Assembly: GCA_964450385.1 (NCBI GenBank)
Contig: CAYVEC010000004.1
Span: forward strand, 22,148-86,147
From: an uncultured Planctomycetales bacterium
Lineage (GTDB): Bacteria; Omnitrophota; Gorgyraeia; Zapsychrales; JANLHA01
Length of the DNA: 64,000 nucleotides
Reading direction: 5' to 3'
Positions 2,483-63,800 of the stretch are shown one piece after another (within the stretch, counting starts at the first letter, position 1; each line of letters opens with the position of its first letter). The position numbers and the translations under genes are program-made. The notes beneath the pieces were generated by a model. That model was not told where the DNA came from, ran no database searches, and worked only from the letters and a program-made list of their open reading frames with translations.

Positions 2483-2503
2483 TATGAGACGGAGGCGTTA
2501 GAT

Positions 2504-3702: not shown

Positions 3703-3870
3703 ATGATATACTCTTAGCGCACTAGCCCGGAGGAAAAAAGAACAGCCGTATCGCAGTTGTCAAGAACATAATTGTCCAATCACAAAAGTCGCCTGAACCG
3801 GCGACTTTCTTGTTTTATAAAAACCCCGGGCGTTTTCATAATGTACAGTCTGTAAATATAGGATTCTTTT

Positions 3871-42800: not shown

Positions 42801-45800
42801 TGATGGCGGTCAGATCCCGTTAACGATCGGGATGCTGTCAGATCTTATGCTCAGGCAGAACGGCGGCGCGAAGGGGGCTCTCGGGATCCTCTCACATCGC
42901 GATGAACGCGGCATCCGTCACGCTCAATGGGTGATCTTTGGTTATGTGCATCATGACGCGTCCGAGACTCGCGTGATCGACAGTGCACCGGTGGAGATGA
43001 CGCTCAAGATGATGGCTGCTATGAAGAGATTGTCTGCGGGCCGGTATGTGGTGACCGAAACAAACGGCACAGCCTACTACATGGATACGATCAATCTTGG
43101 TGAGATGTTGAGCCCGAAGAACGCGGGACGGTATAAGCAGGTTGCCTGGAATGGTGAGGATGGCGAGCCGGTGCGCCGCTACTACCTCGGTGATTCCCTT
43201 GAGACCACCCTGGTCGAGAGCATCGCGGTTTCGGATAGCAAGAATGCCGAGAGACCGATATATCGGGTGATGAGCGATGGGACATTGGGCGAGCAGATCG
43301 CCACGGCTAGATGGATGCGGGAGGTTGATCAAGAATTTGAGATCGACGGGGCACCTGAACGCATTCAGGCTCAGGTTTATGAAAAACGATCCTATCCGTC
43401 AGGGCTTTATGAGGACGCCCTTGGCGTTGCCCGTGACGGGAAGACGGTCCTTGAATTTTATCGGCGGCCGATCATTCTGGCCAATGGGAAATCGGTGGAA
43501 GGCAAGGTCATTGTCGGGTTCCGCAGCCGCGAGGATCGTCCAGTCTATTATTACAACACGAGTTATGAGCTTCTTGACCGCGAGGGGAATCCTCTCCGTG
43601 AGAGCACAAAGGATTGTGTTGTCGGCCGCGCGGTCAGGACCGGGGATCGGTTGGCCGAGCTTCCTGAAGGCCTGCCAGAGGCGTTCCGTAAGGCCTATGC
43701 CCGCGCCGAGGTTGTGGGCGGGATTTCGATCGCGGAGGAGAGGGATTTCAATGATAATTTCGTCCGCGGGTATCTCATCCAGATCGGCGGCAGGGATGAG
43801 ATCATAGGGCGTATTCAACAGTCTTTTGAAGGCACGGAAAGGAATCGTTTTTCGATTGAATTTTCCTTCAAGATAGACGGCAGAGAACAGCTTGTTAAAT
43901 ATGACGCGCACAAGAACGGCACCTTGTACACGACGGATGATGGGCCTCGTTCCGTGTTCTCTGTGGCAGCGGTGGATGCGACGAGCGGCAAGAAGGCGCT
44001 TGCCTATAGCTTTAAGGTAGAGAATCCTACCGAGGGCCTTGGAAAGCTTCTCCGAGTTGGCGCCACGAGTGAAGAGATCCTGCAGGGCCTTGCCGAAGCT
44101 GCTCAAGCCGGGATCCTTCAAGAGGCAACGATCCTTGAGTACCAGGGGGTTCCTGGGGCGCTGGGCCTTGCCAACCAATCAACAACGTATCGTTGGAATG
44201 AAGGATGGGAGGAGATAGACAGAAGCCGGTTGACGTATACCGATGGAAGCCTTATTGAGGACATTAACAATGCCGATGTGAGGCGGCTGCGCGATGGCAT
44301 GGATCGGATCTATTTCAGAGGCCAGAAGTCGTTTAGGCACGACGGCCTTCGTATGACAACTGAGTATGCGGAAAGCAAGACGATCTCGGGGGATATGGTA
44401 GCAACGGCTACGGGCAAGACAGGGGAAAATGGGGACTTCATCCCGAATTCTAAGATCTATAGTTTTTATTCACATGGCGAGCAGCTCAGCGGGGTTTATG
44501 ATGTGGCCTCTAAAACGGTGCGCACGATCTTTGATGAGAACGGACAGGAGAGGATCGACGGATATTCTAACAATACGGCCGTGAAGGACGGGAAGGTTTA
44601 TTACAAGACAAAGCAGGGTCAGGTGACCGATGAGGTGGCCCAGAAGTTTGCCGCAAGCGAGGACAAGTATGATTTTCTGGCAACACATTTGGCTAAGCAT
44701 CATGACATTTCGTTTAAACACATTAAATTGGTTCGAGAAGAAGTGCAGACTATCAATGGCCAATTAGTTGCCGTGATGAGCGGGCATCAGCAGCGCCAGG
44801 AAGACAACCGCCTGCCAGTTTCAGGAACAGCCAGATATATGATGACATTTGAGTATCCGACCCATGGAGAGCGGCGCTTTGCTAATGAGGTCGTGATGTA
44901 TGCGGTGAATCATGGCGACCTGAAGAATCCAGAGGTTTATGGGGAGAAACGCGAGATCAGCTGGTCAAAGAACCCGCGCTTTATGGTGGCGAAAGATGTT
45001 TCTGGTCAACCGGTTGCAGTCGTTGTTTATGACACAGAGGAAACCCGCAAGTCGAAACAAAGTCTGGCTGGCCGCGCGTTACGGTTAGATAACGGCAACA
45101 TCTTCGCAGAATACCAGCAAGGGAGATTTTTATCCACCAGAGATGCGGCGACCTTCTATTCAGAGCAGGGATTCCCTGTTCAGACGGATCGAGTGGCGAA
45201 TGGGTTTGACGCGGCTCTTGGTAATAGCGGCTTCAGGCGGCCGTTCCAGCGCCATTACATTGTTCAGGTCAATCCTGAGGATATGAGCTCTGAGGTCTCC
45301 AAGTTGGAGCGGAAGAACGGTCCTGTTAACGGATACTTCTTTATTTTCAATGAGGATGTCAGGTCAGGGCGCAGCGGCAGGGAGGTCTGCCTGGACATCG
45401 TTTCGTTTAACGATGCCTTCTTTAATAATAATTTATTGGGTGGTCTGCAGATGACAGAAGAGGTCTGGAACAGATATTTCGGTCCGCAGAGTGCCGGCCG
45501 GATTTTTGCGAATGTCGGGATCGGGGGCTATTCGAGCACGCGTGATCTGGTCCAACGCGGTGTTGCTTTATATCACGAAGACGACATGATTTATGAGAAG
45601 CCCAGCCTGATGAGCCCGGAGCGGTGGATGGATTATGAGGGCCGCGGGTTTAAGGAATATTTTGAGATTCATGACCGGCACAATGTGAAGAATTCCTGGA
45701 TCGGCAACGCCGGCAAATTACTTACAAACGAGTGCCTGTATCCGGTTGTCTTTGTAACAACCATCGCGTTTGTGCTCGTGTCGTTGATTACGGTTTTTGG

Positions 45801-48800
45801 TCTGATGAACACTACGGGATTGATTTCAGTGCTTCATTTTAGCGGACTTGGGAAGACCGAGTGGGGCCGCCGGCTGAACGAGGCATCGCAGAGTCTCGGC
45901 GTGAGAATAGCCGAGGCATGGTTGAAAAAGGTGTTTGGGTGGATCGTGGGTGCCGGCGTGATGTTTATGATCGGACTCATCGGGTCTAATATCGTGACCG
46001 GCGGGGAGCTGATCTTTTCGTCGTTCGGGCTTTCGATGGGGTATTGGATGATGGGGATCTGGCTTGGCATTATTTTTATTAAGCACGCCTTCATCCCCTT
46101 GGCCGGCTGGCTGCTCGCCAAGCGGGTGACGCCTAAAACACTGCCGAAACAATATCATCCGATGCGTTTTGATATATGGAAGCGTGTTCGCGCCGGCTTT
46201 ATTGATCGTCATTTGAATCTGGCGGGCGCGTTTTTTGAATATGAAATGATGCTCTATGATCAGGATTTGACACGGCTTATGGATCATTTTTATCCTGATC
46301 AGGGGGGCAATAAACGGATAATGGACTATCGCGTGGAGATTAGCAAAGACATTGAAACCTATAATCGCATGCAAGATGGTGATCCGCAAAAAGAAATACG
46401 GCGTCGTTCGATTATTGAGCGATGGTTTTTAAACCCGATCTTCCAGTTCTGGCTTATGGTCGAAACGGATCAGCACAAGAAGTCCGAAAATTATAATAAA
46501 GGGAAAAAGCCCCTTAAGTTGCTCGGGGTGTACGAGCGTCGCGGATTGGAGTACTTTGTCCTGAGCGACCGGGACCTCAGGCGGTTCTTTGAGGATTTCC
46601 TGAGCGAGGTTAAAAGAAATCCGGACGATTTTCTTAACGAAAAGAAGGAGCCGATGGCGAAATTTAATCTCCTTGAATATCTGATCAGGAAAGAATTGGC
46701 TACAGGGAAGGCCGATGATATCTACATTGCGGCTAAGGGCAGCAAACCTGACAAGGATTTTGATGTGATCGACGAGGCGTTCTTATTTGAGATTAAGAAG
46801 GCATTGAAAGAGAAATATAACGAGGTCGGGCTGAAACAGCCGTCGTTCCCGATTAAATTAAATAAGTGGTGGCACGTGATCTTTGTGTCTGCCGAGGCCA
46901 TCTTGTTTGTGTTAAGCGCCGTTATCCTTATTTCACCGATCTTGGCATGGATCGGCGTTCCTGGCATATCGGTTTTGATCGTGTCGTTGAGGGGCGCCTT
47001 GTTCTATGGCCTGGTCTTAGTCTGGTTTGGACGCATCATTGTGAAGTATCAGAAACATATTGTTTTCCATTTGACGGATTGGCCCAGGGCCTTGTTGAGG
47101 ATATTTGCGACGAAAAATGCTTATTATTATGATAAGGTCCGGACAGAGGATCTTACGGAGATTGTCGGACCCAGGGCGCCAGGATTATTTGATCGTCTTC
47201 TTGAACTTGGATATATCCGCCGGGATCGGGTGAATGCCTCCCGCGGCATTGTTCAAGATCTGAGTAGAGAGGTTACGTCTGAGCAGTTATTCGAAGCTAT
47301 CGGTGAGAGCGGATACACCGAGCAAGAGATCAAGGATGTACATCGTTTGTTGGTCAACCGCCTGAGACGGGCGGACCAGATCGCGGTTAAAGTTCATTTC
47401 TTCAAGGCGTATTGGACATGGCTCTTTTATTCGAATGCCGTTATCTGGTTGGGCGGGTGGTATTTCTTTAGCCTTGTCGCGCCTGGCGCATGGGCATGGG
47501 TTCCGGCGACATTCTTGCTGATCCTGATCTCGCGCGAGTCGATGAGAGGGTGGTGGTACCTCTTTGTTGAAGCGGCCATGCGGAGCATTGAGAAGAATCA
47601 GCGGTGGCATACATATAAATCCTACAAGCAGATTGACTGGGAGGGGATCGGTCTTGTCCGAGGCAATCCGCTGTTAAAAGAATTTTATAAAGAGGTTTTG
47701 GTGAACACGACCTTAAAGAAGATGTATCTTGTCGGGTCGGCCCACGCCGGAGCCCTCCTGCGCTTTATTGACGGGACCAGCGAGAGCATTGCGTCAGAGG
47801 TGCCCGGCATTGGGGCAGAGGCCCAGGAGGAGATCGTCAAATTCTTTAATCAGGTCATTATGGTGACGACCATCGCCGGCAGTGAAGAGAAGTTGATGCA
47901 GCAGATCGATGGGTGGGCATTACAGATGCTTTTACCGGCGGTCTTTAAGGGAACAGGGAAGAAGCGCATTCTGCCGTCTGTGGATTTCCTTGACGGGGAA
48001 GAGCTTGACGGCGAGAAATATAAGCAAAACAATCAGCTGATCAAGTCCGGGTTCTATATGTTAAAACACGCGAAGCATCAGTCGTGGAGGATCTTTATTG
48101 ATGAGGGCTTCCGGAAGGTCTTGGGCATTGAACTTGAACAGCGCGGGATGAAGGGGGTTCGGTTAACAGCCGATCAATGGAACGGGATGGTGGGGCAGCT
48201 CTTGGATTCTGACACGACCCTTCGACGATCGATCGACCTGGTTGCCGATTGCTTGTTGACCAATAAGCCTGGATTGGACAAAAAGAAGGTGCCTGAGGCT
48301 GTGGAGAGGGCGTTTATCACGGGGTGGATCATGTACCGTGCTGATGGGTATCTGAAGACACTGATCTTGAGTGAGATCGCGGCTGAGGCCGTTTATAAAG
48401 TATTTTTACGGTATCGGTATATGAAGATGCATCCGGATGCGGCCAGTCACTCCGAGAGCCAGGTGTGGCAGGGGATCTTCAGAGATGCGGTAACGGCTCG
48501 CTTGGCGCGGGTTGCCAGGCGGGATGGCCTGAGGGATCCGGAGTCAAATGATGTTGAGACCTTGATGAGCGGCCTCAGGAGTGACCTTGAGCGCCGCATG
48601 GGGGCGAAGCTTAGAAGGGATCTCGCGATCGAACTTGATAAGAAGGCCGCCGAGCTTACCGATGAGGAGTATGAGACGTACGTCTATAAAAAGCTTGCGT
48701 TGGCAGAATATCTTCAATTCGTTCATATCCATGAGGACATTGATCCGAATCTAAAAACAGCGGAGCAAAAAGAGGATCCGAAGGCGATCCGTGAGATCCT

Positions 48801-51800
48801 GGTGGATAACGGCGAATATGCCTTGAATAAGTACAACAATAAGACGATCGTCTCGACCATCGATCCTAAAAAGGGCGACCGCATTGCTGAGGAAGATTTG
48901 TCATTCGATTACGAAGCCGGGGCGAGTTGGGTTCCTAAAACGTCAAAGTGGGCGAATGCCACGCGATTTATCGAGAAGTTTTTAATGGATCGAGGACATG
49001 ATGACGCCATGGTCTTTAACCTTGACCGCGATCAGTTCTTCTCTCCGGCAGACTGGTTCTTGTTGCCCTTGGTGAACATCCAGTTTTCAGAGGATCCCAC
49101 GAAGGGCGCGGTCATGACGCGGATGGAAGATAAGGTGAGCTTTGTCGGTGACGTGGCCGCAGATCATAAGGTCGCGGAGGATGTCTGGAACCTCCGCGTC
49201 TTAGGAGCAGAGAGCCACATCGGGACACATTCGTTTTATGGTCCCGGGATCGTCCGTTGGAGGGTCATGGGGCAGTGGGGCGCGTATTTTACGAATATCG
49301 AGGATACCGGTGCCGCGCACGAGGCCCAGATGCTCGGCTATCGGATGGAATTCTGTCCGGAGATCCTGTTCGGGCGTCCGCGCGAGATGGTCCAGTCGTC
49401 GATCCTTGCCTTCCAGATGAGATTCGGCGGCCTGGTGCTCGACGAATTTTTGAGCACGCACAATCAGCGCTATATGTTATCTGATCAGCTTCATTGGACA
49501 GAAAAGCTCACGATCTTCCAGAATTTCGATTTCTATTTTAACAAACCCATGGTCACGATTTTCAATGTGTTGATTTTTATCTTTTCCATGTTTTTGCCTC
49601 TGGCCCCGTTTGCCTATTTTGCTCTTCCGCTGTTCTTTGTCATGATCCAGTATGTTATGGCAGAGGCGATCACGGCAGGTGGCGTGCGGCTCTTTACGAG
49701 CAAGTATGGGCTGGTCAAGGGGATCCTGAAGTATCTGGGCCGTATGTGGAGCATTGTCTTTACCTTTGGCGTCCTGGTTCCGCTTCATGATGAAAAGACC
49801 CGCGGGGCCCATGAGGGGACGGCCGGGTTGTTCAGCGGCGGCGTTAAAGACATTATTTATCCGCTCGCGACGTTTGAGGAATTGTACAACAAATATCGAA
49901 CGTCTATCCGCGTCGGCATGATGCTCTTGGCGATCATTGGGTTCGCGCCGGCGCATCCTTTGGCCATGGCGACGCAATGGTTTTTCTATCTTTTGCCGAT
50001 CGTCTTTATCTATGGCGGATTCATGAAGAACGGTTATAAGAGACGGGGCGTAACGGTCAGCATGGTCTCGTCCTTGGCGATTTATCTTGTTTTAGGCGGG
50101 GTGTCTGTGTTCGGCGTTATGGCGATCCCCGGGATCGTGATCGGCGCGGCCATGATGATTCCGTGGCTGGTCGTTCTTGTGTCTCAATTCATGAAGAATA
50201 AAGGGAATGTTAAGGCCACGTTCGAATATTTCTCGAGAGATCAAAAGATCCGCGGGATCGCCCACGGGACCATGGCAGCGCTTCTGATGGCAGTTGAGAT
50301 CTCCTTACAGCTTGTCTTTGCGGTCGCGGCCTTTGTAGACGCCGTTGGAACCATTCTCCTCAGCGCCGCGTTCTGGAAGGGGCAGATGGGGATCAAGGGG
50401 GTCATAAAAAATGGCAACGAGAGGTTTAGAAAGCATAATATTTTTGAAGATGTTTTTGCCTGGATATCATTAACGGTCAAGAGCAGCAAGATCGAAAAAG
50501 AGAAGGCGGCTCACTCAGCGTTGTCGATCATGGACTTTTATTTGGGGGCGGATCCTGGGGTGCTTGATACAGCGGTGAAGGGGCTGTGGTTTAATGCAGG
50601 GGCCAAACATGACAATGCGGTCAAATGGAACCGTCGTTATTCGGCTGGCTTCTGGGTGGCTGGGGCTGTTATCGTGGCCGGCCTCATATTCGATGCGGCC
50701 GCCGTGGCCTGGTTAGCCGGAGGGATGTTCGGAGCGATTGTTCTTCTCTACGCCGGGGCGAATATGAAACGCTTCGCATCAGGCAAACGTCCTGAGGCCA
50801 TCTATGGGAAGACCGTCGAGGATACAACAGCGATCAAGGCTGTTAAATTGGCGCTTGTCTATAGTTTAGTCGTGCCGTTCTATTGGCTCAACGAGGCCAT
50901 GAAGTGGCAGATCGCTGGAAAATCGTTGATACACATCATCAACGATCCTTCGGTGGATCAATACGATCGATTAGACGCGGTTAAGGCCTTAGGATCACCG
51001 CTTCTTGGACTTAAGGGCAACCCGATCGTGTTCGAGAAATTTATAACGATCGCTCGAGACGGGAAGGATCTGTATCGTGGGTATCGAGCAGAGACGGTTG
51101 AAAAGATCCGTGTCGCTGCGATCGAGGGGTTGGCCGCGCTTAAATATAAGGACGCTGTTCCTTTGCTTAACCAGTTGGCTGGTTTGAACGAATCTGAAGG
51201 TATACGTGAAGCGGCTGTCAAGGCCCTTCTCGCGTTGAAGGCCTCCCAGGAGCTTCTGATCTCGGTGTTAGAGCATGCTATATCTGATCAGGATGTGAAG
51301 AGTTTGACCAAAAGCAAGGCGCGTGATTTCTTGGCCTGCTTGGATCGGACAGATCCGGTCACGGATGCAGAGTTGTTTGAGGTGGTTTTGGATGAGGAGG
51401 AAGATGCTGCCGCTGCGCCTGAGCAGGGGGCACAGACCGCGGTATCGGCAGAAACAGATGCCAATCGTTCGCAGGCGCCGCCAGCCGGTGAGAATCCTGA
51501 AACGCAGGCTGCGGCCCGGCCCGATACGACCACCGACACGAATCGTTCACAGGGCCCGCCGGCAGACCGTGCGATGATCGTTAAGCACGCTGATCAGGTA
51601 ACGGAAGAGGAGTGGGCGCGCGTTCGTGAGATCAGAGTCTTCACTGAATTTGAAGAACAGACATACCGTTTTCTCCATCCGGATGTTCTTTCCGCTCGAA
51701 AAGGACCGACTTTTATCGTTGAGCGGATCCACAATAAATATAATCAGGGTCTCGATTTAAAAGAGGTAGAGTCAAAGCTTTCCTCTGGATATCCTTTTGT

Positions 51801-54800
51801 CTCGATCCTTGAAGGAGACCAGGTCTGGTTTGATGCCTTGCGTAATGCCGTTCGGTCTGAGGGCAATCCGTCAGGACTTCTGGATGCGGAGGTAACAAGT
51901 ATTTTTGTTGCGCCGCTGGATATCGCTGAAGCCCCTGCCCAGGTGGCGGCGCAGAAGGAGGAGACTTTTGAGGCCGAGGTAAGAAGGGCCAATGAGGACC
52001 GGATCGCGTATGTCTCTGATCAAGAAACAATGGCGATGTTATGGGAAATTCGTATTGTCGGATTTGTGAAGGCCTTTACGAAATTTGATGCTGTCAGGAT
52101 TCAGTCCTTTATTAAACATATTGACTCTGATGCGGTCTCTTCATGCACGATCACTGATGAGGAGCGACGGCACATCTCAGCAGAGATCAGCCGCGTTATC
52201 AGCGAGGATGAGACGATCGCGGATAAAAGGTCTGCTAATCGGACGGCTCAGGATGTCCTTTCCGCGTTGAGCGGCCATGAAATTAAAGTCCTCTTGTTCT
52301 TCCAGCAGGTTCTTTTCACACAGATGCTTCAGCGGTTGGCCCTTCGATCAATGAAGAACAACAAGCCGCTTCCGATGAATCGCCGGACTCCGGACGGAAA
52401 AAAGGCCGATACGATCACGCGCGTCGCCAATTCCTTAAAAGAGATGATCGGCGCGGCGGACTATAAATATACCATTATCAATTCCTATGATCCCACTCTT
52501 CAAAAACTTGAACGGGCCAAGCGGCAATTCTTCGTTTATGTCTTTTCAGACCTGTTGCGGGCTGCTGAGCAGCGCGGGAATCTCCCGGCCGGCAATAGTA
52601 TCGCAGCCCTTCTTGGGCGAATGGCGAATGTTGATGATGAAGAGGCTTGTTGGGCCGCTTTGGATGAGGCGGCACGTCTTCTCGAAGCGGCTGTGAAGAA
52701 CGGATTAGCAGGGTCATCAAAATTGAGCATCTTTTCGGGCCCGTCTGCCGGCGGCAAGGGCGAGATGTGGAGCGCCTGCTGCAGCCGGTATCCGAAGCTG
52801 TTTAGAAAATTAATGCTGTATGCTGATCATGATCGGGAGCCCGATGGCAAGGGACGCCGTTTTGCTTCGGTGACGAAGAACGATGGCGTCCTGTTTGAGG
52901 ATCTTATTGAGTATCTTCGGGCGCCGCAGAACGCGAAACCGAACATCACGGCTTGGGGTCATAAAAAGGTCATTATTGCCGCGGCATCTGTTTTGAAGGG
53001 ACAGCAGTTCATTCGTATTTACACGGCCCTGATGCGGATCTTGTCTAATAAGAAGATGGATCCAAAGGTACTGGCTGGGGTGAAAAAGGCTGTTCCGGTT
53101 TTGATTGCTGCGCTCGCCATTCCTGATCTCACCGGCGTCGTTAAGGACCTTTCCGATAAGTATCAGGGCATCAAGACCACGGCAAAGCTAATCATCTATT
53201 CCGGCCCGCCCGGTGGAGGCAAGAGCCTGGTCTGGGATGGTTTTCAAGCGGGCATGAAAGAACTTTTTGATCGAGGGCTTGTTGATAAGTTTATTTTATT
53301 CCACACGCGAGGTATTCGCCAAGGCGAAACGCAAGGCAAAGAGTATCATTTCCGCACGGAGGCGCATCTAAAGGAATTGGAGAGAAGAGGGCTCATTATT
53401 ACGGCGGTCGTTAATGACCAGCTGCAGGGCTTAGCTTTGGTAGATTTTGAGGATGAATTTGACGATCCTACTCAGGGCGGGGTGACGAATAAAGCGCAGA
53501 TCGCGGGCTTGGCATCAAAACTCATTCAGGATAAGATCACCATCCTCGAGGGCGGATTGGGGTGGTTTGATCAATTAAATGTGTTTTTTGCGGATCGGAT
53601 GGCTTCCCGGAGCGAGTTTGCGGGTGTCAATAATGATGGATTGATGAGCATTTTTGTCTCGCCTTTTACAGAAGACAGGATTAAGGAGATTGAAAAGGCG
53701 CACGCGGATGAGATCGTGAAGATGCAGCGAGGATATGAGCGGGGGATCGCGTTGCACGAAGAGGAGTATCAGGCCGCGGTGGCCAGGCAGGCTATCCTGA
53801 AACCGGAAATTGAATCGTTGATCGCTCAGGGCAGAGAGGCATTAGCAGCAGCGTGGCCGAATTTAAAAACACGGATGTTTGATATGATGGGTCACGCCGC
53901 CTTTGATGAGGATGTTCAGGCGGCCAGTAAATCGGCGACGGGCAAGGACGAGAGCGCAACGAAAGAGGGCGCTCTACGCATGGCGTCACAGCGTGAAACC
54001 GTTATTCGTATTCATAAGAGAGAAACGGGTGAGGCTAAAAAAGTCATTGACACTGTCGAGCAGATGATTAAAAACGGTGAACTCGACAAGATACAGGGGT
54101 TATTGGGAAAGACAGACACTATTCGCAAGGTTCTGTATACGCCGATCAAGGAAAAGGAATTAAGAGATCGTGCCGCTGAGGCCGGAACGCAGGTTATTCG
54201 GCGCGGTGATTATCATACCCGTCTTTATAATATCTTTAAAAAGACGGACGACGAAGTTAAGAAATTAAAGCTCGAGCTGGGTACTGATTTTGCGATTGCC
54301 GCCCTCGTGAATTTATATCAAAAAATGGAAGCCCTAAAGGCCCGTCGTCAAAATACCCCTGACCAGCATGCAGAGGCCCGTCAACAGACGGTTGCCAACA
54401 ATCCTGATGTTCACGCTCCTCCGGCGCAGGCCCAGGGCGCAGAGCGCGCACCTCAGCCCCGCTCGCAGGACAGGGGCATGCTGGGCAGGGCGGATCGGCG
54501 CGAGAATCGCTCAGACGCTGCTCGGCCGATTCCTAATCGGTCGATGCCGCAGGCAGAGGTTGTGACCGCCGAGATCGCACGACATGATTTAAACACATTT
54601 ATTGCCTTAGGGCCGAATAACGCGATGGTCAAGTTAGCCATGTCGATGCTCCGTGCGGTCGGCAAGGGCGAGAAGGCGGATAAGCTCGAATGGATGTCGA
54701 GGGCCGGATTGGTCCGGGCGGGCCCGGTTGAAGGGATCCTGGCCACAACAGCGGCCATTAATGGCTTAGAGGCGATTGTCCTTTCGAATGCGTATCCGGC

Positions 54801-57800
54801 ATACAACACAATTATTGAGCATGCTTTAAGTCTTGTCCACGAGATCGGGGCCGTTGCGCCATTTTATGTTGATCACGCCGGTAATGAGCTGCGCGAATTT
54901 ACCGCCCGCAGTTGGTTGCATCGAGATGAAAATGGGCGGAAGGCGGCAGAAGCGGCCATGCAGGATCCGGCGTTTTCTGCTTTTGTTGGGCTTGAGATCG
55001 CCAAGAGGATTCACAGCCGCGAGGTAAAGGAGGCGGATAAGGTCGCGACGCGATCACGAGAGAATCAGGCGGCGGGCAAGAAGGCGCAGAAATTTTATGT
55101 TCCGACGCCTCAAAAAGAGTTTGTCAAACGTATCAGTGAGGCCGTTGTGCAGGTTGCTCGGCGGCACGAATATAAGAAGGTCTTGGTGAACACGTGGGCT
55201 AACAGCGAGGCTGAATATGAGGAGCTGATCGAGCGGCTGACCGAGGAGTTCGCGCTGACGATTTTCCGCAACATCGCCCGTGCTGTCGGGATGACAGGGA
55301 TCGATCATTTATCGGCAAAGGACCTGGCAGACAGGATCCGCGTGATCGATCTGAGTCAATATGATACGATCGCAAAATTTGTGATTTACAGCGGTCCGCC
55401 TGGCGGCGGCAAGGGGGCAGTATGGGATCGGTTTGAAGAGTTATATGGCGATATGATCAGTAAGTTTGTCTTGTTCCATACGCGCAATATTCGCGACGGC
55501 GAGCAGATGGGCAGGAATTATCATTATCGTAATGAGCAGGCACTTGATGATCTGGCCGTCCAAGGAAAGATCATCACCGCTTTAATTAATGGACAAAAAC
55601 AAGGGATGGCGATCAAAAGTTTTTCTGATCAATATTCATACATTGATCCGCAAACGAAAAAACAATATGACGGGACGGCAGACGTCTTCGGGCTGGAAGG
55701 GGTCTTTAAAGGAAATAAAATTGTGGTGTTGGAATGCGGACTGGCGTGGTTCGAAGCGCTTTATAAGCAGTACGATGACGAATTGACGAGCATTTTTATC
55801 TCGCCGTTCAGCGATCGGGAGATCGAGGATGCGGTGAATGATATGGAGAAAAGCAGGGCCGCCTTTATTGGTCTAGAGATTGCAAAACGCATTCACAGCA
55901 GGGAGGTCAAGGAGGCAGAGGTGGTGGCGAAAGAGAACGCCCTCAAACAGGAGAAAGACGAGGCGATCTCGAAATTCTATCTGCCTACCCCGCAGAAGGA
56001 ATTTGTTAATCGGATCATTGAGGCCTCGGTCCAGGTGGCCCGCCGTCATGAATATCAGGAGGCCCTTGTTAATACGTGGGCCCATAGCGAGGCAGAATAT
56101 GTGGCTATGATCGAGCGATTGACGGAGCAATTCGCCGTAACTATTTTCCGAAAGATCGCGGATGCGGTCGGGATTCCGTACACACCATCGACAACGGCCC
56201 ACGAGCTCGCCGAGCGGATCCGAGCCGTCGATCTAAGCCAGTATGACACGATCGCGAAATTCGCGATCTATAGCGGACCGCCCGGCGGAGGGAAGGGCGC
56301 GGTCTGGGATCGGTTCAAAGAGCTTTATGGTGACATGGTGGATAAATTTGTTCTCTTCCATACACGGAACATCCGCAAGGGTGAAAAGATGGGCGTGAAT
56401 TATCATTATCGCAATCCAGGCCCATTAAAGTCGTTGGAGCAAGAGGGCGGGGTGATCACGGCGTTAGTGAATGGGCAATTACAGGGTTTGGCGGTTGAGA
56501 GCTTCCAAGACAAGTATGGGTATGTTGATCCCCAGTCTGGCGAGAGACATGAGGGTGAGACGTTCATCTCCGGGCTCGATCGAGTCTTTGCCGGAAAGAA
56601 GATCGTCATTCTTGAGTGCGGGCTGGCCTGGTTTGAATCCCTTCACCAGAAGTATGGCGACGCGCTGACGAGTATTTTTATTTCGCCGTTCAGCGATAGC
56701 GAGCTCGCGTGGGCAGAGGAGAGCCTTGTTGATCAACAGAGCCTCCTGACCACGGAAGAGGCTCGAGAGCTGGTTGGATATTTCCATGGTCAAGGCGCAG
56801 AGCTTATTGCCCAGTTGTTCCGGTGGCAGGTTGAGTATTATTTTAAATTAGGAAAGAGCTTAACGCTTGTGCAGATGCTTCAACAGGAGTATTTCGAGCT
56901 CTTGGATGAGAACGGGAACATGACGGGAACTGTCAAGCCGCGCGGGCTGGTCCATTATGACGGCGATTGGCACCGTGATATCCGTGTCATCATGGTGAAT
57001 CATCGCGGTGAAATGCTTATTCAAAAACGTGGGAATCAAAAGGATATTGAGCCTGGTCTTTTTGCAGAGTCAGTAGGGGGGCACACCAAATTAGGCGAGA
57101 GCTATGATCAGAATGTTCATCGTGAGATACGTGAAGAGATCGGCGTTGATCAGATTGATGAACGGCGGCTGGAACGGCTAGGCGTCTTTAAGGACAAAGT
57201 GTTCGGGGCCAGGCACGCGATTAACCGGTCTCACTATGCCGCATATGTGTATGTCATGAACCCGGAGGAAGAGGCGAGGATTGTTATTGATTACGCCGAT
57301 GGGATCGCCGCTGCGTTCTGGGTGCCGATGGCAGAATTGAGGGCCCAGATCCTGGCCGCCCCTGAGGCGTATACAAAATCATTGGTCAATGCGTTCACGG
57401 ATGGTGAGAGTTTTGAAAAACTGTCCGGGTTCGTCGCCCAGGCCGTACATGGCAGGGATTCGGGGATGATCGGCGCCGAGGATGATCAGAGGTCATCGGC
57501 TGTGTCAGGAGGCGGGAAAAAGCTCATTATTTATTCGGGCCCATCCGCTGTCGGCAAGAGCCCGCTTTGGGAGCAGGTCGCGAGGCGGTATCCGGGGGTT
57601 TTTGAACGGGTCGTTCTCTATCATTCACGACTGCCCCGGGCCGGAGAGATCGATGGTGTTCATTATAAATTTACGACGCCCGAGCACATTCGCGATGTTT
57701 TGATACGGACGCCTACCTTTATTGATATTGAGCTCAATGGAGAGCTACACGGCCTGGATATCCGAGATGTCGATGCGGCGATCGCCGGGAACAAGATCGG

Positions 57801-60800
57801 CGTGGCCGAGACGTGTGTCGCATTAGCGCAAAAACTCAAAGAGCGGTATCCCGCGATCGTGTTTACGATCTTTATTTCTCCGTTAACGGATGAGGAGATC
57901 GAACGCCGGAAGGCCGAGGGGGGCAAGACAGAGGAAGAGGTGATTTATGAGGAGATGCGGCGGCGGCAAGAAGAGCGGAACCGGGAGATCCCGATCGAAG
58001 AGAAAAAGCGGGAGGCGCGGGCCCGAACGGCTGTGACAGAAATGGCGCGTCGGCATGATTATGATGCGATGATCGTCATCTCGGATCTGCGTGATATTAA
58101 GGCTCATGCGGATCGCTGGCAGGGAGAAGAGGGGTCGGCCCTCGTTGAGCATTTTATGGGATTGGTCAGAACCGCGGCAGGGATCACCGTCGGTGGGGCA
58201 GGGGAGGCGGAGACAGATCAGGGGATGATATCAGAAGGGGATCAGGCGCTCGTTGAGGATATAGTGACGGTTCTTTCTTGGAGTGCGGAACGACAAACAA
58301 TTCCAAACGGATTTGATCTTTTGTGGATTATGGGCTCACCGAATCGCAGGACCCCAGGGACAGCGATCCAAATTTTAAAGCATCACCCTGAGGCCAAAGT
58401 CCTTATTACGGGCGGTACAGGGAAGAATAATATGCAGACGCCGGAGTGGTTCCTTGCGGGAAGACCTCTTTTTGCAAAGGCGGCTCAATATCTTGATCAG
58501 GCCTTGGATGCCCTGGATAAAATGAGGTCCACAGACGAGGAATTATTCTGGAACATAATGAAAGAGCGTTTTGGCATTTCCCGCGGTGCGGGTTCGGCCA
58601 AAGACCATTCTAATGAGCGATATCGATGGGATATTATTGTGGGACTCAAAGGATATCAGTGCCTCTCTCGATTAAGAAACACAACGATCGAGGAGGCGGT
58701 TTTAGATGACCTGCTTAATAGAGAGACTCGTCCCCATACATTTGTTCCTGAGGCGATGCTCTATTACGCCGTTTTAGCAGCAGAAGGGGTTCCGGAAGAG
58801 AACATGGTCATGGAGTGCCAATCGACGTCTTCGCTTGAGAATATTGAATTTGGCGCCACGTCATTAAAGGTAAACAACATTAGCCCGCGAGATATTGTTC
58901 TGATCCAGCAGGGATATAATCAGCGTCGAGGCAGATTGACGTTTCAAAAGAACTTTCCGAAATTTTTCCCGAATTGGCAAGGGACCGTGACAAGCTGGGC
59001 TGGTCATTTATTTGATGGCAGCGATGGAGCCGATGAATTCGATCTCCATCAAATACGAGATCCAGAGCAATTAGAGTATTGGCGCCAAAGAGCAGTCCGC
59101 GAGGTTGAAAGGATTTTAAATTATGCGGGCCAACATGATGAAAATATTATTGTAAAGGAGCCGGTCCCTGCACAAGTATTTGATGCGGCAAAACGTCTTG
59201 TTGCGGGTAGGGAGAATGAAGGGTGGCACAACGCAGAGCGCGAGTATCGATCATCTAATAATGGGCCCAATAAAGATGAAGGCATGCTGGCCGCTGACGA
59301 TGCAAGAAGAGATGATGGGCTGAAAGGCTTTGGATCGAGCTCTGTCCAGATGCAAACATATTCAGACTTGGCCGGGACATTTGAGGATGATATCACGCTT
59401 GGTGTTCGGGTCGATCAAAAAGGCCCGATCAAGGTAACGGTGCCGGTCCTTAAAGAGAGGCGAAACCCTGTTCGCGAAAAACGAGTTCAGGAGATCGCGG
59501 CGTTATTTAATGAGGCGTTTGTCTTATTAGAGGAGACCGTTTCAACAATAGGGGCGGAAGAGCTGAAGGTGCATTATAGCGGATTATTGGCTCATCCGCA
59601 GAACAAGAGCCCGCCAGCCGATAAGCCTCAGAACATCGTTCGCTTTAGCAGGGAATTGCGTCGCGATTCGGCGCGTTATTTTAATAAGAATGCCCACCGG
59701 GTTGAGTTTATTTTTAATGTGGACTTTATCGATCAATTATTGAGCGGGCATGCGGATCATTCTAAACCCGTTCAGTATATTCTGGCCCAGCGCCTGTTCC
59801 ATGAGATCGGGCACAATAACGACAAAACGAATTTATATGGTCAGGTCCGGGAAGAGTTCGAAATGGTCATCTGGGACCTCAAGCTGTTCGAGCTCTATGA
59901 ACGGATTGGGGCTACCGCAGGGATTAGTGCGTATTATATGCAAGAATTTCCGAACGGCACGGGATTTATCAATCGGACATTTAGGGAATTAGCCAAGACG
60001 AATAGCGACCTGAGGGATCAGGCTCAGCCGCTTTATAAAGCGGTGAAATCGGCCCTAACAGAGATGAATGCGATTGAAGAATTACCGGAGAAAGAGGTAG
60101 GGGCTTTTGTTCAAGAGTTCAGGACCAAATATCCCGCCGTGTATGAAGAGATGGGAGAGGCGGCACGAGTCACCTTTGTCAACATCTTAGAGTGCGTGCG
60201 GCGAGAGACCATTCCTTATGAGGGGGGATACATACGGACCATTATCAAGCTTTCGCGGATGATGAAGGCTAAGCCGGAGCTTTTGCTTCAGTTGAGGGAT
60301 AAGATCGATGAGCTTGAAAGGGTCGAGAATGAGGCGTTGGTGGATTATGTTAAAAATACTCGATCCGTTCATGGGGCCTATGATTTGGCAAATGACGAGG
60401 CTCTGAGGGACAGGGTTCGGGGGCGGGTTGATTATGTACGGGGCAGTTTAATGCCGGCGTTCCAAATACAGTTGCCGGCTGCGCGGCCGTATACATTCTT
60501 GCAGGATTATATGAGCCAGTTAAACATCCGCGCTAATATTGTTGCTGCCGAGAATCTGTTTTATTTGACCGGGACGCAGCAGGTCAGCGTGGTCCCCTGG
60601 CGGCATATTAATCTTCTCAATTTCCGCGGAAATGGCGATGGGACGATTCGTCAATATTTGAATTTCGCGATGAATTGGAGCCAGGCTCTTGGATTCGGGA
60701 TGACACGGGCGGAGAATAATATCGGAGGCCGACAGCGGCCGCACACGCATCCTAATGTCGAGCGCACCCTTTCTCTTTCGGATGATACCTTTGTTGTGAA

Positions 60801-63800
60801 CTATGCCAGGATCATGCAGGATGTGATCCTTGAGTTACAAGAAAAGGCCGGCATCTTAAAAGGCGAGGCCCAGGGGGGCGCGCTTTATAGAGCGATTACG
60901 GCAGCCTTGGCCGCTGATGTGATCGAACGCTTTGGTTCCGGACTGGCAGCGGCCAAGTTTTTGACGGAAGTTGCGTCAGAGAAACCTCACAAAGACTTTG
61001 TTGCTGTAATGAAGGCATGCGAGCGGTTAAGTGATTTAGAAAAAATGGAATTTTCAAGGGCCATAGAGTATATATCGGCACATGTTGCCAAAAGATTGCC
61101 GGAGCTTGAGGCCAAACACGGATTCTCATTAAAGTTCGCCCATATTAGTTATATTCCGCCAGAGGTCTCTCATTATATTAAGAACTCCAGCGGTTCGGTG
61201 CCTAGTGCTGACTGCACCATGAAGGACCTCTTTTTGCAGTTGTATAAGATTGTCGGGACTCCGGGGACGCAGGCGAGCGTTGAAAGTCTTCCGCCGAGGA
61301 CAGAATCACGGCACGACTGGGGCGAGGTTTTTGAACAGGTCCTGACAGAGGTCACGTCAAAAGTAGCGACCGATCCTAACGGAGAAATATACTTTGCTTA
61401 TGATGCGCGCGGGCGATACAACCCGATTTCAGTCGAAAGGGTGGCGCTGCGGGAGACGCTGATTACGGTCAGACCGGGCCAGCAGACAATGACTTTCGAT
61501 ATGGCACGTTATTTTGGCAAGCCGATTGGAGATGGAGTTTATATCGTCGCTCTTCAGCCGTGGCCGAAGGTTGTGCCCGAGCATTGGATGTTTGTTGATC
61601 CTGCAAAAGGGAACGCTCCCGTAGATCCGAAACGCCTCGTGTGTCAGATAGAGCTCTTTACCTCAGGAAGTTTAACACCGGTAGATGTTAAGACGCTGCG
61701 CGGCGGTGAACAGTTGGTGATTAACAATCGCGAGTCGCGCGAAAAAATTACACACATGAGGATTCGAAATGACTCAGAAAATATTAATAGCCATGAAGAC
61801 GCTTCAACGATCGTCATTTTAATTCCAGGTATTGAGGAGGACAATCCATTAAAGTGTTTTGGCGGACAGTCCTTTGTTGGGGCTGATTATGGGATGACGG
61901 GCGATGCGTTTGAGCAGGATTCGCGATTCATCGAGATGGCCGAGACATATTTCACAGGCGACAGGGACGCGACTAGGAAGGCGCTCATTTCTTGGCAAGA
62001 GGGATTTAAGAGCCGTTTAAATAAGGACGTCTCGATCGAACAATTGTTAAACGTGAAGATCGCGGAAGACCAGAAAGGGGCCACGGAATATTTTTATGTT
62101 CTTAATGCTGATGGGACAAGGACCGGACAGATCAAGCCGCGTCACCTTGTTCATCGAGACGGAGACTGGCACGCGTCTGTTTATGTGATGCTTTTTGACA
62201 AAGAAGGGAATGTTATTCTTCAGCGTCGATCCAAGAATCGGCAGACGGATCCTTTCAGGCTTGATGGCGCGGCCTGTGGCCATACCGCTCTTGAGCTTGA
62301 TTATCGAAAAGCGGCGGCCAAGGAGGCGAATGAGGAATTAGGGCTTGAGATCGAGCCACAGGACCTTATTTTAATCGGCCGAGAGAATCAGTATCTTGAT
62401 GTTTTTGATATGGTGGATAGGGATGGAAATGAGCTCCACAACAGAGGCATGACAACGGTTTTTGCCTACGTGCTTCCTGACGGCATAACATCGCAGGACC
62501 TGCGTTTTAGCAGGGAAGAGGTCGACAGCCTGGAAAGCCGGCCGTTTGCTGACGAAGTGTGGCGCGTTCAGCAACTGCCGGGCGACTATGCGACAGTTAA
62601 GAATTTCCTTCAGCCGGGGTCTGAGGTCGTCCGGCTCCTTGGGGAAGCGTTTGAGAACGAGGTGCGCCAGCGTCTTGAGGCTCCTGGAATCTTCATCAGT
62701 GATAAAGATGGTACGATCGTAGAGGCCAGCGAGGCGATCGATCCGGAGATGCTGCAGCAGTTGATGGTGCTGCTCGGTTTGAATATGCACGTGATGATCC
62801 TGACCGGTGCTATTTTTGAACATGGGCTTGCGACGGTGATCGACCCGATCGAGGCCGAGGCCCGGCGCCGTGGCCTGGCAGATCGTCTGCCGAACATCCG
62901 GTATTACTTTATCAGCGGCAATGGATGGATGACATGGGATCAGGAAGGCCGGCGCGCGATCCGTTATATTGAGCAGAGGTTCTCTGACGATGAGCTTTGT
63001 ATCATGGCCGTGAGTTTGGCGTCCTCGTTTATGGATGGCGTTGGGGAGAGGGCCGGCGGCGAGATCATTCTTGAGCCGTATCGCTCTCGGATTGACGCCG
63101 TGCGGTCGATCACGGAAGCGCAGCAGGTCTTCGGGGAATTCATTGAAAGGAATATTGAGACGACCGGTTTTGTCCGGATCGATAATGGCGATGATCGCAT
63201 GGTCATTCTCGAATTAAAGGCCTCACAGCACCGGCTTGCCCGGCCGGCATGGCGTCGAGATGATTTTGTGAGGGTTGTGTATGAGCGCGCATTGTCGCGC
63301 CTCACGGAGCGTGGGGTTACGGTGCCGGTCCATCATTATGGCGCGACGTTCATTGATTTCAACCAGCGCAACAAGAAAGAAACGTTCCGCAGGATCATGG
63401 ACGAGCCGGCCTTCCGGAGGTCTCCGGTCTATGCCTTTGGAGATGGGGCCAATGACTACGAGTTTTTGAATGATCCGGTATCTTATGGCCGAAAGAAGGC
63501 CTTCCTTGTTCGGGCGCCGCAGAGCGGATCCGAGGAACGATTAAAGAATGTCACGATCTGGAGAGCAGAAGGACCCGCAGGCACGAAGGAGATCATTAAG
63601 TCTATTGTTTTTCCTGAAATGATCGGACGAAGGTGGGGCATGGGTGTTGGTAAGGATATCGCGGAGATGATGTCGTTCTTCGGCGGCGACATCGAAAGGG
63701 CCCGCGGGGCCTTGATCGGGTGGCAGCGTGAGTTGAAGGAAAAGATCGGTCAGGACAAGAGCCTCGAGCAGATGACGACCTTTAAGGATGACGCGCATTC

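What the first reader, a model, noticed from the sequence alone, without database searches (positions are those of the whole stretch)
54950..56730. Diverged tandem duplication of a roughly 0.9-kb linker+GK-like unit inside the giant ORF
Two consecutive units share about 70% identity at DNA and protein level in the same order. This points to module amplification by unequal recombination as a growth mechanism for the giant gene. The divergence argues that the duplication is old and both copies are maintained in frame.
Basis: seen in the sequence. Interest (0 to 1): 0.5.

Follow-up and report, generated by a model that had tools for sequence, protein, structure and literature searches.

The report
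Old tandem duplication of kinase module
Inside a giant (>20,000-codon) gene of an Omnitrophota-type bacterium, an 882-base module encoding a guanylate-kinase-like enzyme sits twice in a row; the duplication is real, ancient and kept by selection, an ordinary way for such genes to grow, and the supposed "linker" is really part of the kinase fold.

Summary
Confirmed. Window 54979-55860 and 55861-56742 are head-to-tail, in-frame copies, exactly 882 nt (294 codons) apart with no indels. DNA identity is 65.5% against 27.3±1.4% at other in-frame offsets; protein identity is 64-67% (blastp E 4e-126). Synonymous sites are randomised (87 same-codon matches vs 80.5 expected) and dN/dS is about 0.1-0.18, so the duplication is old and both copies are under purifying selection.

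The ORF (3862 to beyond 63999) resembles the multi-enzyme "Archaeovorin" giant proteins of Omnitrophota: T2SS-F genes upstream, then C39-like, M23, HEAT, GK, NUDIX, DUF218 and HAD domains.

The pair belongs to a family of at least four full GK-like domains plus a fragment. The "linker" is not a linker. Its first ~100 residues carry the GK LID motif (RIHxRE = RLxxR) and the C-terminal strand and helix. AlphaFold of U1-core + U2-"linker" (pLDDT 83) matches whole guanylate kinases (TM 0.85). So the repeated unit is a GK fold in rotated order (tail-link-core).

Relatives show 1, 2 or ≥9 units. Two lineages have nearly identical pairs, so duplication or gene conversion recurs. Detectable repeats make up only ~9% of this ORF.

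It is a new member of a known kind, of modest interest.

The parts
3862..63999 (+). Giant open reading frame. It is stop-free for 20,046 codons, the likely start is ATG 3871 or 3883, and it runs off the 3' end of the window.
   Evidence: single open frame; start codons. Pfam: C39-like, M23, HEAT, GK, NUDIX, DUF218, HAD.
54505..54918 (+). 'P' pre-domain (aa 16882-17019, motif SLVHEIGA) that precedes the unit pair. Together P+U1+U2 form a super-module.
   Evidence: Window aa 16873-17640 is collinear with three places in L002 (47-58% identity) and with L003. No Pfam family matches.
54979..55860 (+). Unit 1 (U1, aa 17040-17333). Tail 54979-55281 (LID motif RIHSRE, then RRHEYKKVLVNT strand and C-terminal helix); link 55282-55368; P-loop core 55369-55830; variable spacer 55831-55860.
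   Evidence: Pfam Guanylate_kin 28.4 bits, above the 25.2 cutoff.
55861..56742 (+). Unit 2 (U2, aa 17334-17627). Tail 55861-56163; link 56164-56250; P-loop core 56251-56712; variable spacer 56713-56742.
   Evidence: Pfam Guanylate_kin 19.5 bits, below the cutoff.
55354..56196 (+). Natural segment U1-core + U2-tail, which forms a complete guanylate-kinase fold in canonical order.
   Evidence: AlphaFold2 pLDDT 83.3, pTM 0.75. In Foldseek against PDB all top hits are guanylate kinases; 1gky has TM 0.85 (target-normalised) and rmsd 3.2.
53179..54321 (+). Older paralogue C1. Core is aa 16440-16610 (40-45% identical to U1/U2); a ~100-aa insertion follows, then the tail at aa 16712-16820. The order is canonical.
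   Evidence: The orthologue in L004 is 46% identical and collinear.
52717..52839 (+). Degenerate GK P-loop fragment C0 (KLSIFSGPSAGGKGEMW).
   Evidence: Core-HMM hit covering HMM positions 2-43, iE 2.9e-9; sequence.
57517..58161 (+). Paralogue C4. Core aa 17886-18014 is followed directly by the tail aa 18012-18100. It is the most canonical GK copy.
   Evidence: Pfam Guanylate_kin 54-57 bits, profile positions 3-153 of 182.
56779..57348 (+). Pre-NUDIX + NUDIX module immediately after U2. No GK tail lies between the U2 core and this module.
   Evidence: Pfam NUDIX 54 bits. The orthologous junction in L003 is shown. It is one of three such modules.
55792..55826 (+). Most conserved DNA stretch of the module (codes IFISPFSD). 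It recurs at 56674-56708 (86%) and 57868-57902 (77%) and is a plausible substrate for unequal pairing.
   Evidence: Repeat family D5. It lies in the window with the highest same-codon fraction, codons 256-285.

Best explanation
The finding is an ancient, in-frame tandem duplication of one complete enzymatic module (882 nt, 294 codons). It lies in the enzyme-rich part of a giant multi-enzyme protein of the Omnitrophota 'Archaeovorin-like' kind. The module is a P-loop kinase with the guanylate-kinase fold. The local array therefore reads P-domain, tail1, core1, tail2, core2, NUDIX. Core1 plus tail2 make a GK domain with normal connectivity. Tail1 and core2 must either fold with their own unit partners as circularly permuted domains or complement each other. 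This step is inferred. The duplication most likely arose by unequal homologous recombination or replication slippage between neighbouring GK modules (inferred). It is about as old as, or older than, the split from the closest available relatives. Both copies have since been kept by purifying selection with every phosphoryl-transfer residue intact. They probably act as two active kinase sites whose acceptor is not GMP, because the guanine-recognition residues are replaced by a family-specific ITAxVNGQLQGLA / ILECGLAWFE signature. The same module keeps being duplicated or homogenised in related genomes, so copy number is dynamic.
For: The repeat is real: exact 882-nt offset, 65.5% DNA identity vs a 27.3±1.4% background, blastp E 4e-126. 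It is old: NG86 dS 2.8, LWL85 dS 1.5, and 87 same-codon matches among 189 conserved residues vs 80.5 expected from codon usage alone, with no low-dS tract. It is selected: dN 0.26-0.28 and dN/dS 0.10-0.18; the tail half scores 0.12, and only the last 12 codons score ~1.1. It has a GK fold: Pfam Guanylate_kin; hhalign places the core on canonical GK positions 2-133 with probability 98.8%, and the tail's only hit is GK 142-167. MAFFT with canonical GKs aligns RIHSRE to the LID RLxxR motif and RRHEYxxxLVNT to RYKDFKYLVVND; the P-loop Lys, the NMP-site R/R/E/Y and the LID Arg residues are invariant. The AlphaFold model has pLDDT 83 and matches whole guanylate kinases with TM 0.85. Motifs are conserved in 11 units from 3 genomes. 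Element order: the window, L002 and L003 arrays start with a tail after P and end with a core. Single tail-core units flanked by other domains occur in L003, L002, P0024, P0025, P0040, P0054 and P0043. The junction is shared: W SDREIEDAVNDMEKSRA, L002 SDKELEEAVNDSQKVFD, L001 SDEYLKEAVKNKDI. Turnover is ongoing: the L002 pair is 831/832 nt identical and then unrelated, and P0005 has a 249-aa perfect pair in the other register. Context: T2SS-F genes lie upstream, the domain set is, and it matches the descriptions in bioRxiv 10.1101/2023.11.21.568195 and 10.64898/2026.06.07.730766.
Against: No trace of the recombination event survives, so the mechanism is inferred. The neighbour-joining tree puts W_U1 with W_U2 and the two L002 units with each other. 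That topology could also mean independent duplications rather than one ancestral event followed by conversion. The AlphaFold run on a single native unit (tail-link-core) gave pLDDT 46 from a 3-row alignment, so the permuted fold is untested. The confident model used an alignment containing canonical GKs, which favours the canonical pairing. Pfam and PDB sequence searches align only the first ~65-80 residues of the GK fold, and re-permuting the unit did not extend the match. The residue after the P-loop Lys is Gly-Ala, not Ser/Thr, and the guanine-binding residues are replaced, so catalysis is not assured. Membrane topology, and therefore access to ATP, was not determined. The single copy in L003 comes from a short-read MAG and could be a collapsed near-identical pair.
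Confidence: 0.8

Rival explanations
1. Recurrent independent duplications: the window lineage and the L002 lineage each duplicated a single ancestral unit separately at the same place, rather than inheriting one old duplication that was later homogenised in L002.
For: In the unit tree W_U1 is sister to W_U2 and L2_3334 is sister to L2_3628. Cross-genome identities (61-63%) are no higher than the within-window identity of 64%. L003 has one unit at the orthologous P...NUDIX position. Fresh duplications clearly occur in the family.
Against: Both genomes have the same 294-codon period and the same unit boundaries. The copy1-to-copy2 junction peptide matches at 8 of 15 positions between the window and L002 and is also recognisable in L001, while it is unrelated to the end of copy 2. 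The L002 identity tract stops exactly before that junction, as expected for gene conversion between pre-existing copies. The L003 single copy may be an assembly collapse.
Confidence: 0.2
2. The units are catalytically dead scaffold or binding domains, like the GK domains of MAGUK proteins. They would be duplicated to add binding sites rather than enzyme activity.
For: The guanine-recognition residues of true guanylate kinases (E..GNxYGT and the Asp of the LDID/LEID strand) are replaced. The Walker-A position after Lys is Gly-Ala. The U2 Pfam score is below the gathering threshold. MAGUK GK chains appear among weak PDB sequence hits.
Against: MAGUK GK domains have lost the P-loop. Here GPPGGGK is kept in 10 of 11 units, together with HTRNIRxGExMGxNYHY, both LID arginines and the third Arg of the tail, all under dN/dS of about 0.1. 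Canonical GKs P0002-P0004 also have GKG after the loop, though followed by Thr. The neighbouring modules are nucleotide-metabolising enzymes (NUDIX, HAD).
Confidence: 0.2
3. Remnant model: the tail-first register is an accident of array decay. Only core1+tail2 is a working GK domain; tail1 and core2 are orphan remnants of flanking domains whose partners were deleted.
For: Canonical core-to-tail order is the commoner form among relatives (P0005, P0008-P0011, P0017, P0021, P0026-P0029 and others). The only confident model is the canonical pairing.
Against: Tail1 and core2 are as conserved as tail2 and core1: dN/dS for codons 1-130 is 0.12, and the motifs are identical. The arrangement 'P, tail ... 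core, next domain' recurs in at least 7 arrays across 3 genomes and in several database proteins, including arrays with a single tail and a single core. Remnants would not stay intact with saturated dS.
Confidence: 0.15
4. The similarity reflects two separately acquired GK genes fused side by side, or an assembly artefact, rather than duplication in situ.
For: None specific. Giant multi-enzyme ORFs do accrete unrelated domains.
Against: Similarity covers the non-GK link and starts and ends at the same residues in both copies with no indel over 282 codons. Copies that differ by 35% cannot be confused by an assembler. The same two-unit structure is seen in independent assemblies L001 and L002.
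Confidence: 0.02

Closest known systems
Multi-enzyme ('Archaeovorin'-type) giant proteins of Omnitrophota (West-Roberts et al. 2023, bioRxiv 10.1101/2023.11.21.568195; 2026 preprint 10.64898/2026.06.07.730766)
   Same: The ORF exceeds 20,000 codons. It is preceded by type II secretion genes (two T2SS-F). It has an N-terminal hydrophobic segment plus a C39-like region, HEAT repeats, and NUDIX and HAD modules. The nearest relatives are all Omnitrophota MAGs. The 2026 preprint already reports that 65% of long proteins repeat a Pfam domain and that nucleotide tandems have mostly dissolved through divergence. That is exactly the state seen here.
   Different: Neither paper mentions guanylate-kinase domains (0 occurrences). 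The unit-level anatomy, the rotated register and the conversion tracts in relatives are not described there. The window's own taxon was not determined directly.
Guanylate kinase (PF00625; e.g. yeast Guk1, PDB 1gky)
   Same: Same fold (TM 0.85 to 1gky). Shared features are the P-loop, the TTRxxRxGExxGxxYxF-type NMP-phosphate site, the LID RLxxR arginines, and the C-terminal strand and helix.
   Different: The guanine-specifying residues are replaced. A ~25-aa insertion sits in the NMP-binding part and a ~30-aa insertion in the LID. Cys is conserved in ILECG. Gene order is tail before core. The domain is embedded in a giant polypeptide. The family is very rare: 154 hits in 1.84 billion representatives.
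Circular permutation by duplication (classic model: tandem duplication of a domain, then loss of the outer N- and C-terminal pieces)
   Same: Tandem core-tail-core-tail arrays (P0005, P0014), tail-core single units (L003, P0024, P0025, P0040, P0054) and core-tail single units (P0008-P0011) coexist in one family. L003 even has P-core-tail next to P-tail-core. These are the stages the model predicts.
   Different: No structure of the permuted unit was obtained. In two-unit arrays an ordinary domain (core1+tail2) is also possible. A search of the held library found no report of natural GK permutation, so there is no precedent to compare with.
Concerted evolution and unequal crossing-over in tandem intragenic repeats (for example bacterial surface-protein repeats)
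   Same: The repeats are head-to-tail and in frame, copy number varies between relatives, and some lineages have near-identical pairs with sharp tract ends.
   Different: The unit is a whole ~290-aa enzyme domain rather than a short structural repeat. In this window the copies have escaped homogenisation for long enough to saturate dS.

Membership tests
Tandem intragenic duplication | Two adjacent head-to-tail copies, collinear, with similarity far above chance | tested here: met
   Offset exactly 882 nt. DNA identity 65.5% vs 27.3±1.4% at other offsets. blastp E 4e-126.
Tandem intragenic duplication | Reading frame preserved and both copies under purifying selection | tested here: met
   882 = 3 x 294 with no indels or stops. 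dN/dS 0.10 (NG86) to 0.18 (LWL85), with dS saturated.
Guanylate kinase family (PF00625) | Pfam gathering score reached | tested here: inconclusive
   U1 scores 28.4 bits (cutoff 25.2) and U2 19.5 bits (below). C4 scores 54-57 bits and C1 23.8 bits. Only profile positions ~3-67 align for U1 and U2.
Guanylate kinase family (PF00625) | GK three-dimensional fold including the LID and the C-terminal strand and helix | tested here: met
   The AlphaFold model of U1-core + U2-tail has pLDDT 83.3 and pTM 0.75. All 50 listed Foldseek PDB hits are guanylate kinases; 1gky gives TM 0.85 and rmsd 3.2. Caveat: the alignment included canonical GKs.
Guanylate kinase family (PF00625) | Phosphoryl-transfer residues: P-loop Lys, NMP-phosphate Arg/Arg/Tyr, LID arginines | tested here: met
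   K20, R44, R47, E50, Y56, R179, R183 and R220 are invariant in alignment A4. They are conserved in 10-11 of 11 units.
Guanylate kinase family (PF00625) | Guanine-recognition residues (Glu of FLE, GNxYGT, Asp of LDID/LEID) | tested here: not met
   They are replaced by ITAxVNGQLQGLA and ILECGLAW in all units. These are therefore GK-fold kinases, not demonstrable guanylate kinases.
Guanylate kinase family (PF00625) | Canonical sequence order: core, then LID, then C-terminal strand | tested here: not met
   In the window, L002 and L003 arrays the tail precedes the core. No core lies before tail1 and no tail after core2. C1 and C4 in the same protein do have canonical order.
MAGUK-type inactive GK domain | Degenerate P-loop with ATP binding lost | tested here: not met
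   GPPGGGKG is intact in U1 and U2, and the Lys is kept in 10 of 11 units.
Omnitrophota multi-enzyme giant protein (Archaeovorin-like) | Giant ORF with an N-terminal C39-like peptidase, HEAT repeats, and NUDIX, HAD and other enzyme domains | tested here: met
   >20,046 codons. C39 scores 20.7 bits (just under the cutoff of 22). HEAT_2, two NUDIX hits, a HAD-type hydrolase, DUF218 and M23 are present.
Omnitrophota multi-enzyme giant protein (Archaeovorin-like) | Type II secretion-like locus immediately upstream | tested here: met
   Two T2SS-F (GspF-like) genes at 1625-2482 and 2504-3388.
Omnitrophota multi-enzyme giant protein (Archaeovorin-like) | Host belongs to phylum Omnitrophota | tested here: inconclusive
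   All three genome relatives are Omnitrophota MAGs. No marker gene of the window's own genome was examined.
Natural circular permutant (permutation by duplication) | A single permuted unit occurs on its own between unrelated domains | tested here: met
   L003 has P-tail-core-NUDIX. L002 has such units at aa 2812 and 6302. P0024, P0025, P0040, P0054 and P0043 also show it. Caveat: L003 could be a collapsed pair.
Natural circular permutant (permutation by duplication) | The permuted unit folds into the same 3D structure as the canonical domain | tested here: inconclusive
   AlphaFold of native U2 with a 3-sequence alignment gave pLDDT 46 and pTM 0.44, which is uninformative. Both AlphaFold jobs are used.

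The most novel reading that the evidence does not exclude
The duplicated unit is a naturally circularly permuted guanylate-kinase-fold enzyme. Its LID and C-terminal subdomain is encoded before the P-loop core, and the old termini are joined by a ~30-aa link. It belongs to a rare Omnitrophota-restricted kinase family with a non-guanine acceptor. Canonical, tandem and permuted forms coexist in the same giant proteins, which would capture 'permutation by duplication' in progress.
Probability: 0.5. Interest if true: 0.5.

Novelty: new member of a known kind. Interest (0 to 1): 0.33.

Why it matters
This is a clean, datable example of how the enzyme-rich part of bacterial giant genes changes. Whole enzyme modules are duplicated in tandem, homogenised by gene conversion in some lineages and left to diverge in others. 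Examples are the 100% identical pair in P0005, the 99.9% pair in L002 and the 65% pair here.

There is also a practical point for annotation. Domain libraries recognise only the first ~65 residues of these modules, and one copy falls below the Pfam threshold. A reader then takes the LID and C-terminal half for a "linker". The giant proteins probably contain more enzyme, and less spacer, than current annotations suggest.

If the rotated register is a true circular permutation, the family would be a natural series illustrating permutation by duplication in a P-loop kinase.

None of this changes the general picture already published for Omnitrophota giant proteins.

Tried and rejected
- Tandem Repeats Finder found nothing relevant; its longest period (500) is shorter than the 882-nt unit.
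- The search for homologous proteins with U1, and then with a 9-unit alignment, returned only P0001 plus ordinary GKs. The family is almost absent from that index.
The metagenome scan only re-found the L004 scaffold.
- Pfam on artificially re-permuted units (core then tail) and on natural core1+tail2 did not extend the GK match beyond profile position ~67. PDB phmmer likewise aligned only ~70 residues. The sequence-only test of 'tail = GK C-terminus' was therefore inconclusive.
- hhalign of the tail against three canonical GKs gave the expected position, but weakly (P = 0.02).
- AlphaFold of the native unit failed for lack of alignment depth.
- A first whole-protein self-BLAST returned nothing and was redone in chunks.
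- A first period guess for P0005 (287) was wrong; the period is 288.
- I considered that the P domain is a degenerate HExxH (zincin-like) domain. hhalign supports only 15 columns at P = 0.03, so this is not claimed.
- I rejected the minus-strand ORFs inside the units (55873-56202, 56479-56793) as shadow ORFs of a G+C-rich coding frame. The plus frame shows homology, domains and a dN/dS well below 1.
- A library search for natural circular permutation of guanylate kinase found nothing relevant.
Full report
**Observation**

The window holds one stop-free frame from 3862 to its 3' end, 20,046 codons long. Inside it, direct-repeat search finds four collinear blocks of 70-221 nt at 74-76% identity. 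All have a start-to-start spacing of exactly 882 nt.

Taken as whole units, 54979-55860 (U1, aa 17040-17333 of the frame) and 55861-56742 (U2, aa 17334-17627) align without a single indel.
- DNA identity is 65.5%. The mean for 199 other in-frame offsets is 27.3%, SD 1.4%.
- Identity by codon position is 70 / 82 / 45%.
- Protein identity is 64%, or 66.7% over 282 aa, with blastp E 4e-126.

In a chunked self-BLAST of the whole protein this pair is by far the strongest internal repeat.

**Age and selection**

Nei-Gojobori gives dN 0.28 and dS 2.8. LWL85 gives dS 1.5. The ML estimate of dS runs to the boundary.

A direct count makes the same point. Of 189 codon pairs that encode the same residue, 87 use the same codon. 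Codon usage of the ORF alone predicts 80.5, and no 30-codon window stands out as a recent conversion tract. Synonymous sites are thus essentially randomised while dN/dS is about 0.1-0.18.

Only the last 12 codons behave neutrally (~1.1). The duplication is old and both copies are maintained.

**What the gene is**

Pfam finds the following:
- a weak C39 peptidase match near the N-terminus;
- an M23 peptidase near aa 9,650;
- nothing over most of aa 1-15,000;
- then HEAT repeats, four Guanylate_kin matches, two NUDIX hits, DUF218 and a HAD-type hydrolase.

Two T2SS-F genes lie just upstream. The only genome relatives found are three Omnitrophota MAGs. This matches the multi-enzyme "Archaeovorin" giant proteins, including their upstream type II secretion locus. 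It also matches the "multi-enzyme metabolic cluster" class of a 2026 preprint. That preprint reports that most long Omnitrophota proteins repeat a Pfam domain and that the underlying nucleotide tandems have largely dissolved by divergence. Neither paper mentions guanylate kinase.

**More than two copies**

HMMs built from the copies find GK "cores" (P-loop to FISPFSD) at aa 16440, 17170, 17464 and 17886, plus a P-loop fragment at 16286. They find a second element, the "tail", at aa 16712, 17040, 17334 and 18012.

**The "linker" is part of the kinase fold**

Several results agree.
- Copy C4 shows core followed directly by tail, as in ordinary guanylate kinases.
- hhalign places the core profile on canonical GK positions 2-133 (probability 98.8%). 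The tail's only hit is positions 142-167, just after that. This hit is weak (P = 0.02) but collinear.
- MAFFT with three canonical GKs aligns the tail's RIHSRE with the LID motif RLxxR and RRHEYxxxLVNT with RYKDFKYLVVND.
- In that alignment the P-loop Lys, the NMP-phosphate site (R, R, E, Y), both LID arginines and a third Arg are invariant.
- AlphaFold2 of the natural segment U1-core + U2-tail (window 55354-56196) gives pLDDT 83.3 and pTM 0.75.
- In Foldseek against the PDB all 50 listed matches are guanylate kinases. Yeast 1gky scores TM 0.85 normalised to its 186 residues, over an alignment spanning 263 columns (the query is 281 aa).

Sequence-only searches (Pfam, PDB phmmer) see just the first 65-80 residues. 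That explains why the rest looked like a linker.

**Register of the unit**

Around the duplication the order is P-domain, tail1, core1, tail2, core2, pre-NUDIX/NUDIX. There is no core before tail1 and no tail after core2.

The same tail-first register follows a P domain in every array of L002, which has nine units in 7,000 aa. L003 has P-tail-core-NUDIX and, next to it, P-core-tail.

An exhaustive HMMER search of 1.84 billion representatives finds only 154 relatives. Among them are:
- canonical single units (P0008-P0011, P0017 and others);
- tandem core-tail arrays (P0005, P0014);
- isolated tail-core units with nothing after the core (P0024, P0025, P0040, P0054, and P0043 with P-tail-core).

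Tail1 and core2 are as conserved as their partners, and isolated tail-core units exist. I therefore infer that tail-link-core is a functional, circularly permuted form of the domain. In a pair, core1+tail2 can also form a normally connected domain. This step is not demonstrated. The AlphaFold run on native U2 had a three-row alignment and gave pLDDT 46.

**History**

Window aa 16873-17640 (P+U1+U2) is collinear with L002 aa 3177-3944 at 58% identity, and with two further L002 super-modules. In L003 the orthologous P...NUDIX interval holds one unit.

The copy1-to-copy2 junction peptide is shared: window SDREIEDAVNDMEKSRA, L002 SDKELEEAVNDSQKVFD, L001 SDEYLKEAVKNKDI. The ends of copy 2 differ. 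Together with the identical 294-codon period, this points to one ancestral duplication.

In L002 the two units are 831/832 nt identical up to FISPF and then unrelated. That fits recent gene conversion between pre-existing copies. In P0005 a 249-aa perfectly identical pair runs core to tail with a period of 288, an independent event in the other register.

The unit tree groups the two window units together and the two L002 units together, with cross-genome identities of 61-63% against 64% within the window. The duplication is thus roughly as old as the split, and independent duplication cannot be excluded. I give that 0.2. The single copy in L003, a short-read MAG, could be a collapsed pair.

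**Mechanism and function**

Unequal homologous recombination or slippage between neighbouring GK modules is the natural mechanism. The most conserved DNA stretch (IFISPFSD; 55792-55826, 56674-56708, 57868-57902) is a plausible pairing site. No footprint remains, so this is inference.

Functionally the units keep every phosphoryl-transfer residue. They replace the guanine-recognition residues with ITAxVNGQLQGLA and ILECGLAWFE. The Cys in the latter is conserved even though the protein has only 29 Cys in 20,046 residues. I therefore read them as active GK-fold kinases with an acceptor other than GMP, working next to NUDIX, HAD and DUF218 modules. A MAGUK-like dead-domain reading is less likely because the P-loop is intact.

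Hydrophobic segments cluster at aa 13,962-15,615 and none occur between 15,616 and 19,633. Which side of the membrane this region faces was not determined.

Amplification of this module is real across the family. In this ORF, however, all detectable repeats (GK copies and three NUDIX modules) add up to about 1,800 of 20,046 residues, and the first ~16,000 residues show none. Duplication explains local growth of the enzyme-rich region, not the size of the gene.

**Verdict**

As a duplication it is a new member of a known kind: intragenic module duplication in Omnitrophota giant proteins. Two points add to it: the "linker" is half of the kinase fold, and the family shows canonical, tandem and rotated registers side by side. 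Interest is modest (0.33). The permuted-kinase reading (probability about 0.5) would raise it to about 0.5.

Noticed in passing
window 42000-46000 (whole ORF profile 1-64000): G+C of the giant ORF drops from 0.57-0.62 (4-42 kb) to 0.49-0.54 (44-64 kb). The break coincides with a cluster of ~10 hydrophobic segments (aa 13,962-15,615) and with the start of the enzyme-rich part. This could mark a fusion of two regions with different histories.
   Followed up: no
window 54505-54918; L002, L003, L004 (many places); P0024, P0043: A ~140-aa 'P' domain (motif RAGPxEGFLA...SLVHEIGA) has no Pfam match. It recurs about 19 times across L002, L003 and L004, often directly before an enzyme module such as GK. 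It occurs only once in the window part. Its resemblance to the HExxH domain (AERLFHELGH) that precedes GK modules in other relatives is weak (hhalign 15 columns, P = 0.03).
   Followed up: partly
window 56779-57348, ~61945-62350, ~63670-63999: Three copies of a pre-NUDIX + NUDIX module (aa 17640-17830, 19363-19500, 19938 to the window end) are 31-38% identical to one another. This is a second, older amplified module family in the same region.
   Followed up: partly
L002:10001-11764: The syntenic unit pair in Omnitrophota MAG nDJH13bin20 is 831/832 nt identical over the first 832 nt and unrelated over the last ~50 nt. This is a sharp-edged recent gene-conversion or re-duplication tract.
   Followed up: yes
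P0005 aa 2241-2777: A 4,709-aa fragment of another giant protein carries a tandem pair of GK modules with 249 consecutive identical residues (offset 288). The tract runs core to tail, the opposite register to L002.
   Followed up: yes
L003 protein aa 2793-3615 (L003 nt ~8378-10846): In one protein, P-core-tail (canonical order) and P-tail-core (rotated order) lie side by side.
   Followed up: partly
whole ORF; units at window 55732-55743 and 56614-56625 (LECG): The protein has only 29 Cys in 20,046 residues. Even so, every GK unit in three genomes keeps a Cys in ILECGLAWFE, at the position of the canonical LDID/LEID strand. This may be a catalytic or regulatory thiol.
   Followed up: no
window 52717-52839 and 54319-54500: A degenerate GK P-loop fragment (KLSIFSGPSAGGKGEMW), preceded by a tail-like AADYKYTIINSYD, looks like a decayed extra unit. 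A Pro/Gln/Arg-rich low-complexity stretch separates C1 from the P domain.
   Followed up: partly
window 18-3388 and 3862-5000; ~32790-32985: Upstream are an unannotated 404-aa ORF and two T2SS-F (GspF-like) genes. The giant ORF starts with a hydrophobic segment and a C39-like region (20.7 bits, just under the Pfam cutoff). An M23 peptidase domain sits near aa 9,650 in an otherwise unannotatable 15,000-aa stretch.
   Followed up: partly
L001 (ENA ERZ2470813 NODE_38534, 3054 nt, coverage 1.4): This low-coverage contig has the same two-unit arrangement but many frameshifts. The gene caller therefore produced the 330-aa 'protein' P0001 (core-tail-link-start of core). It shows how fragments of giant genes enter protein databases as small ORFs.
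   Followed up: partly
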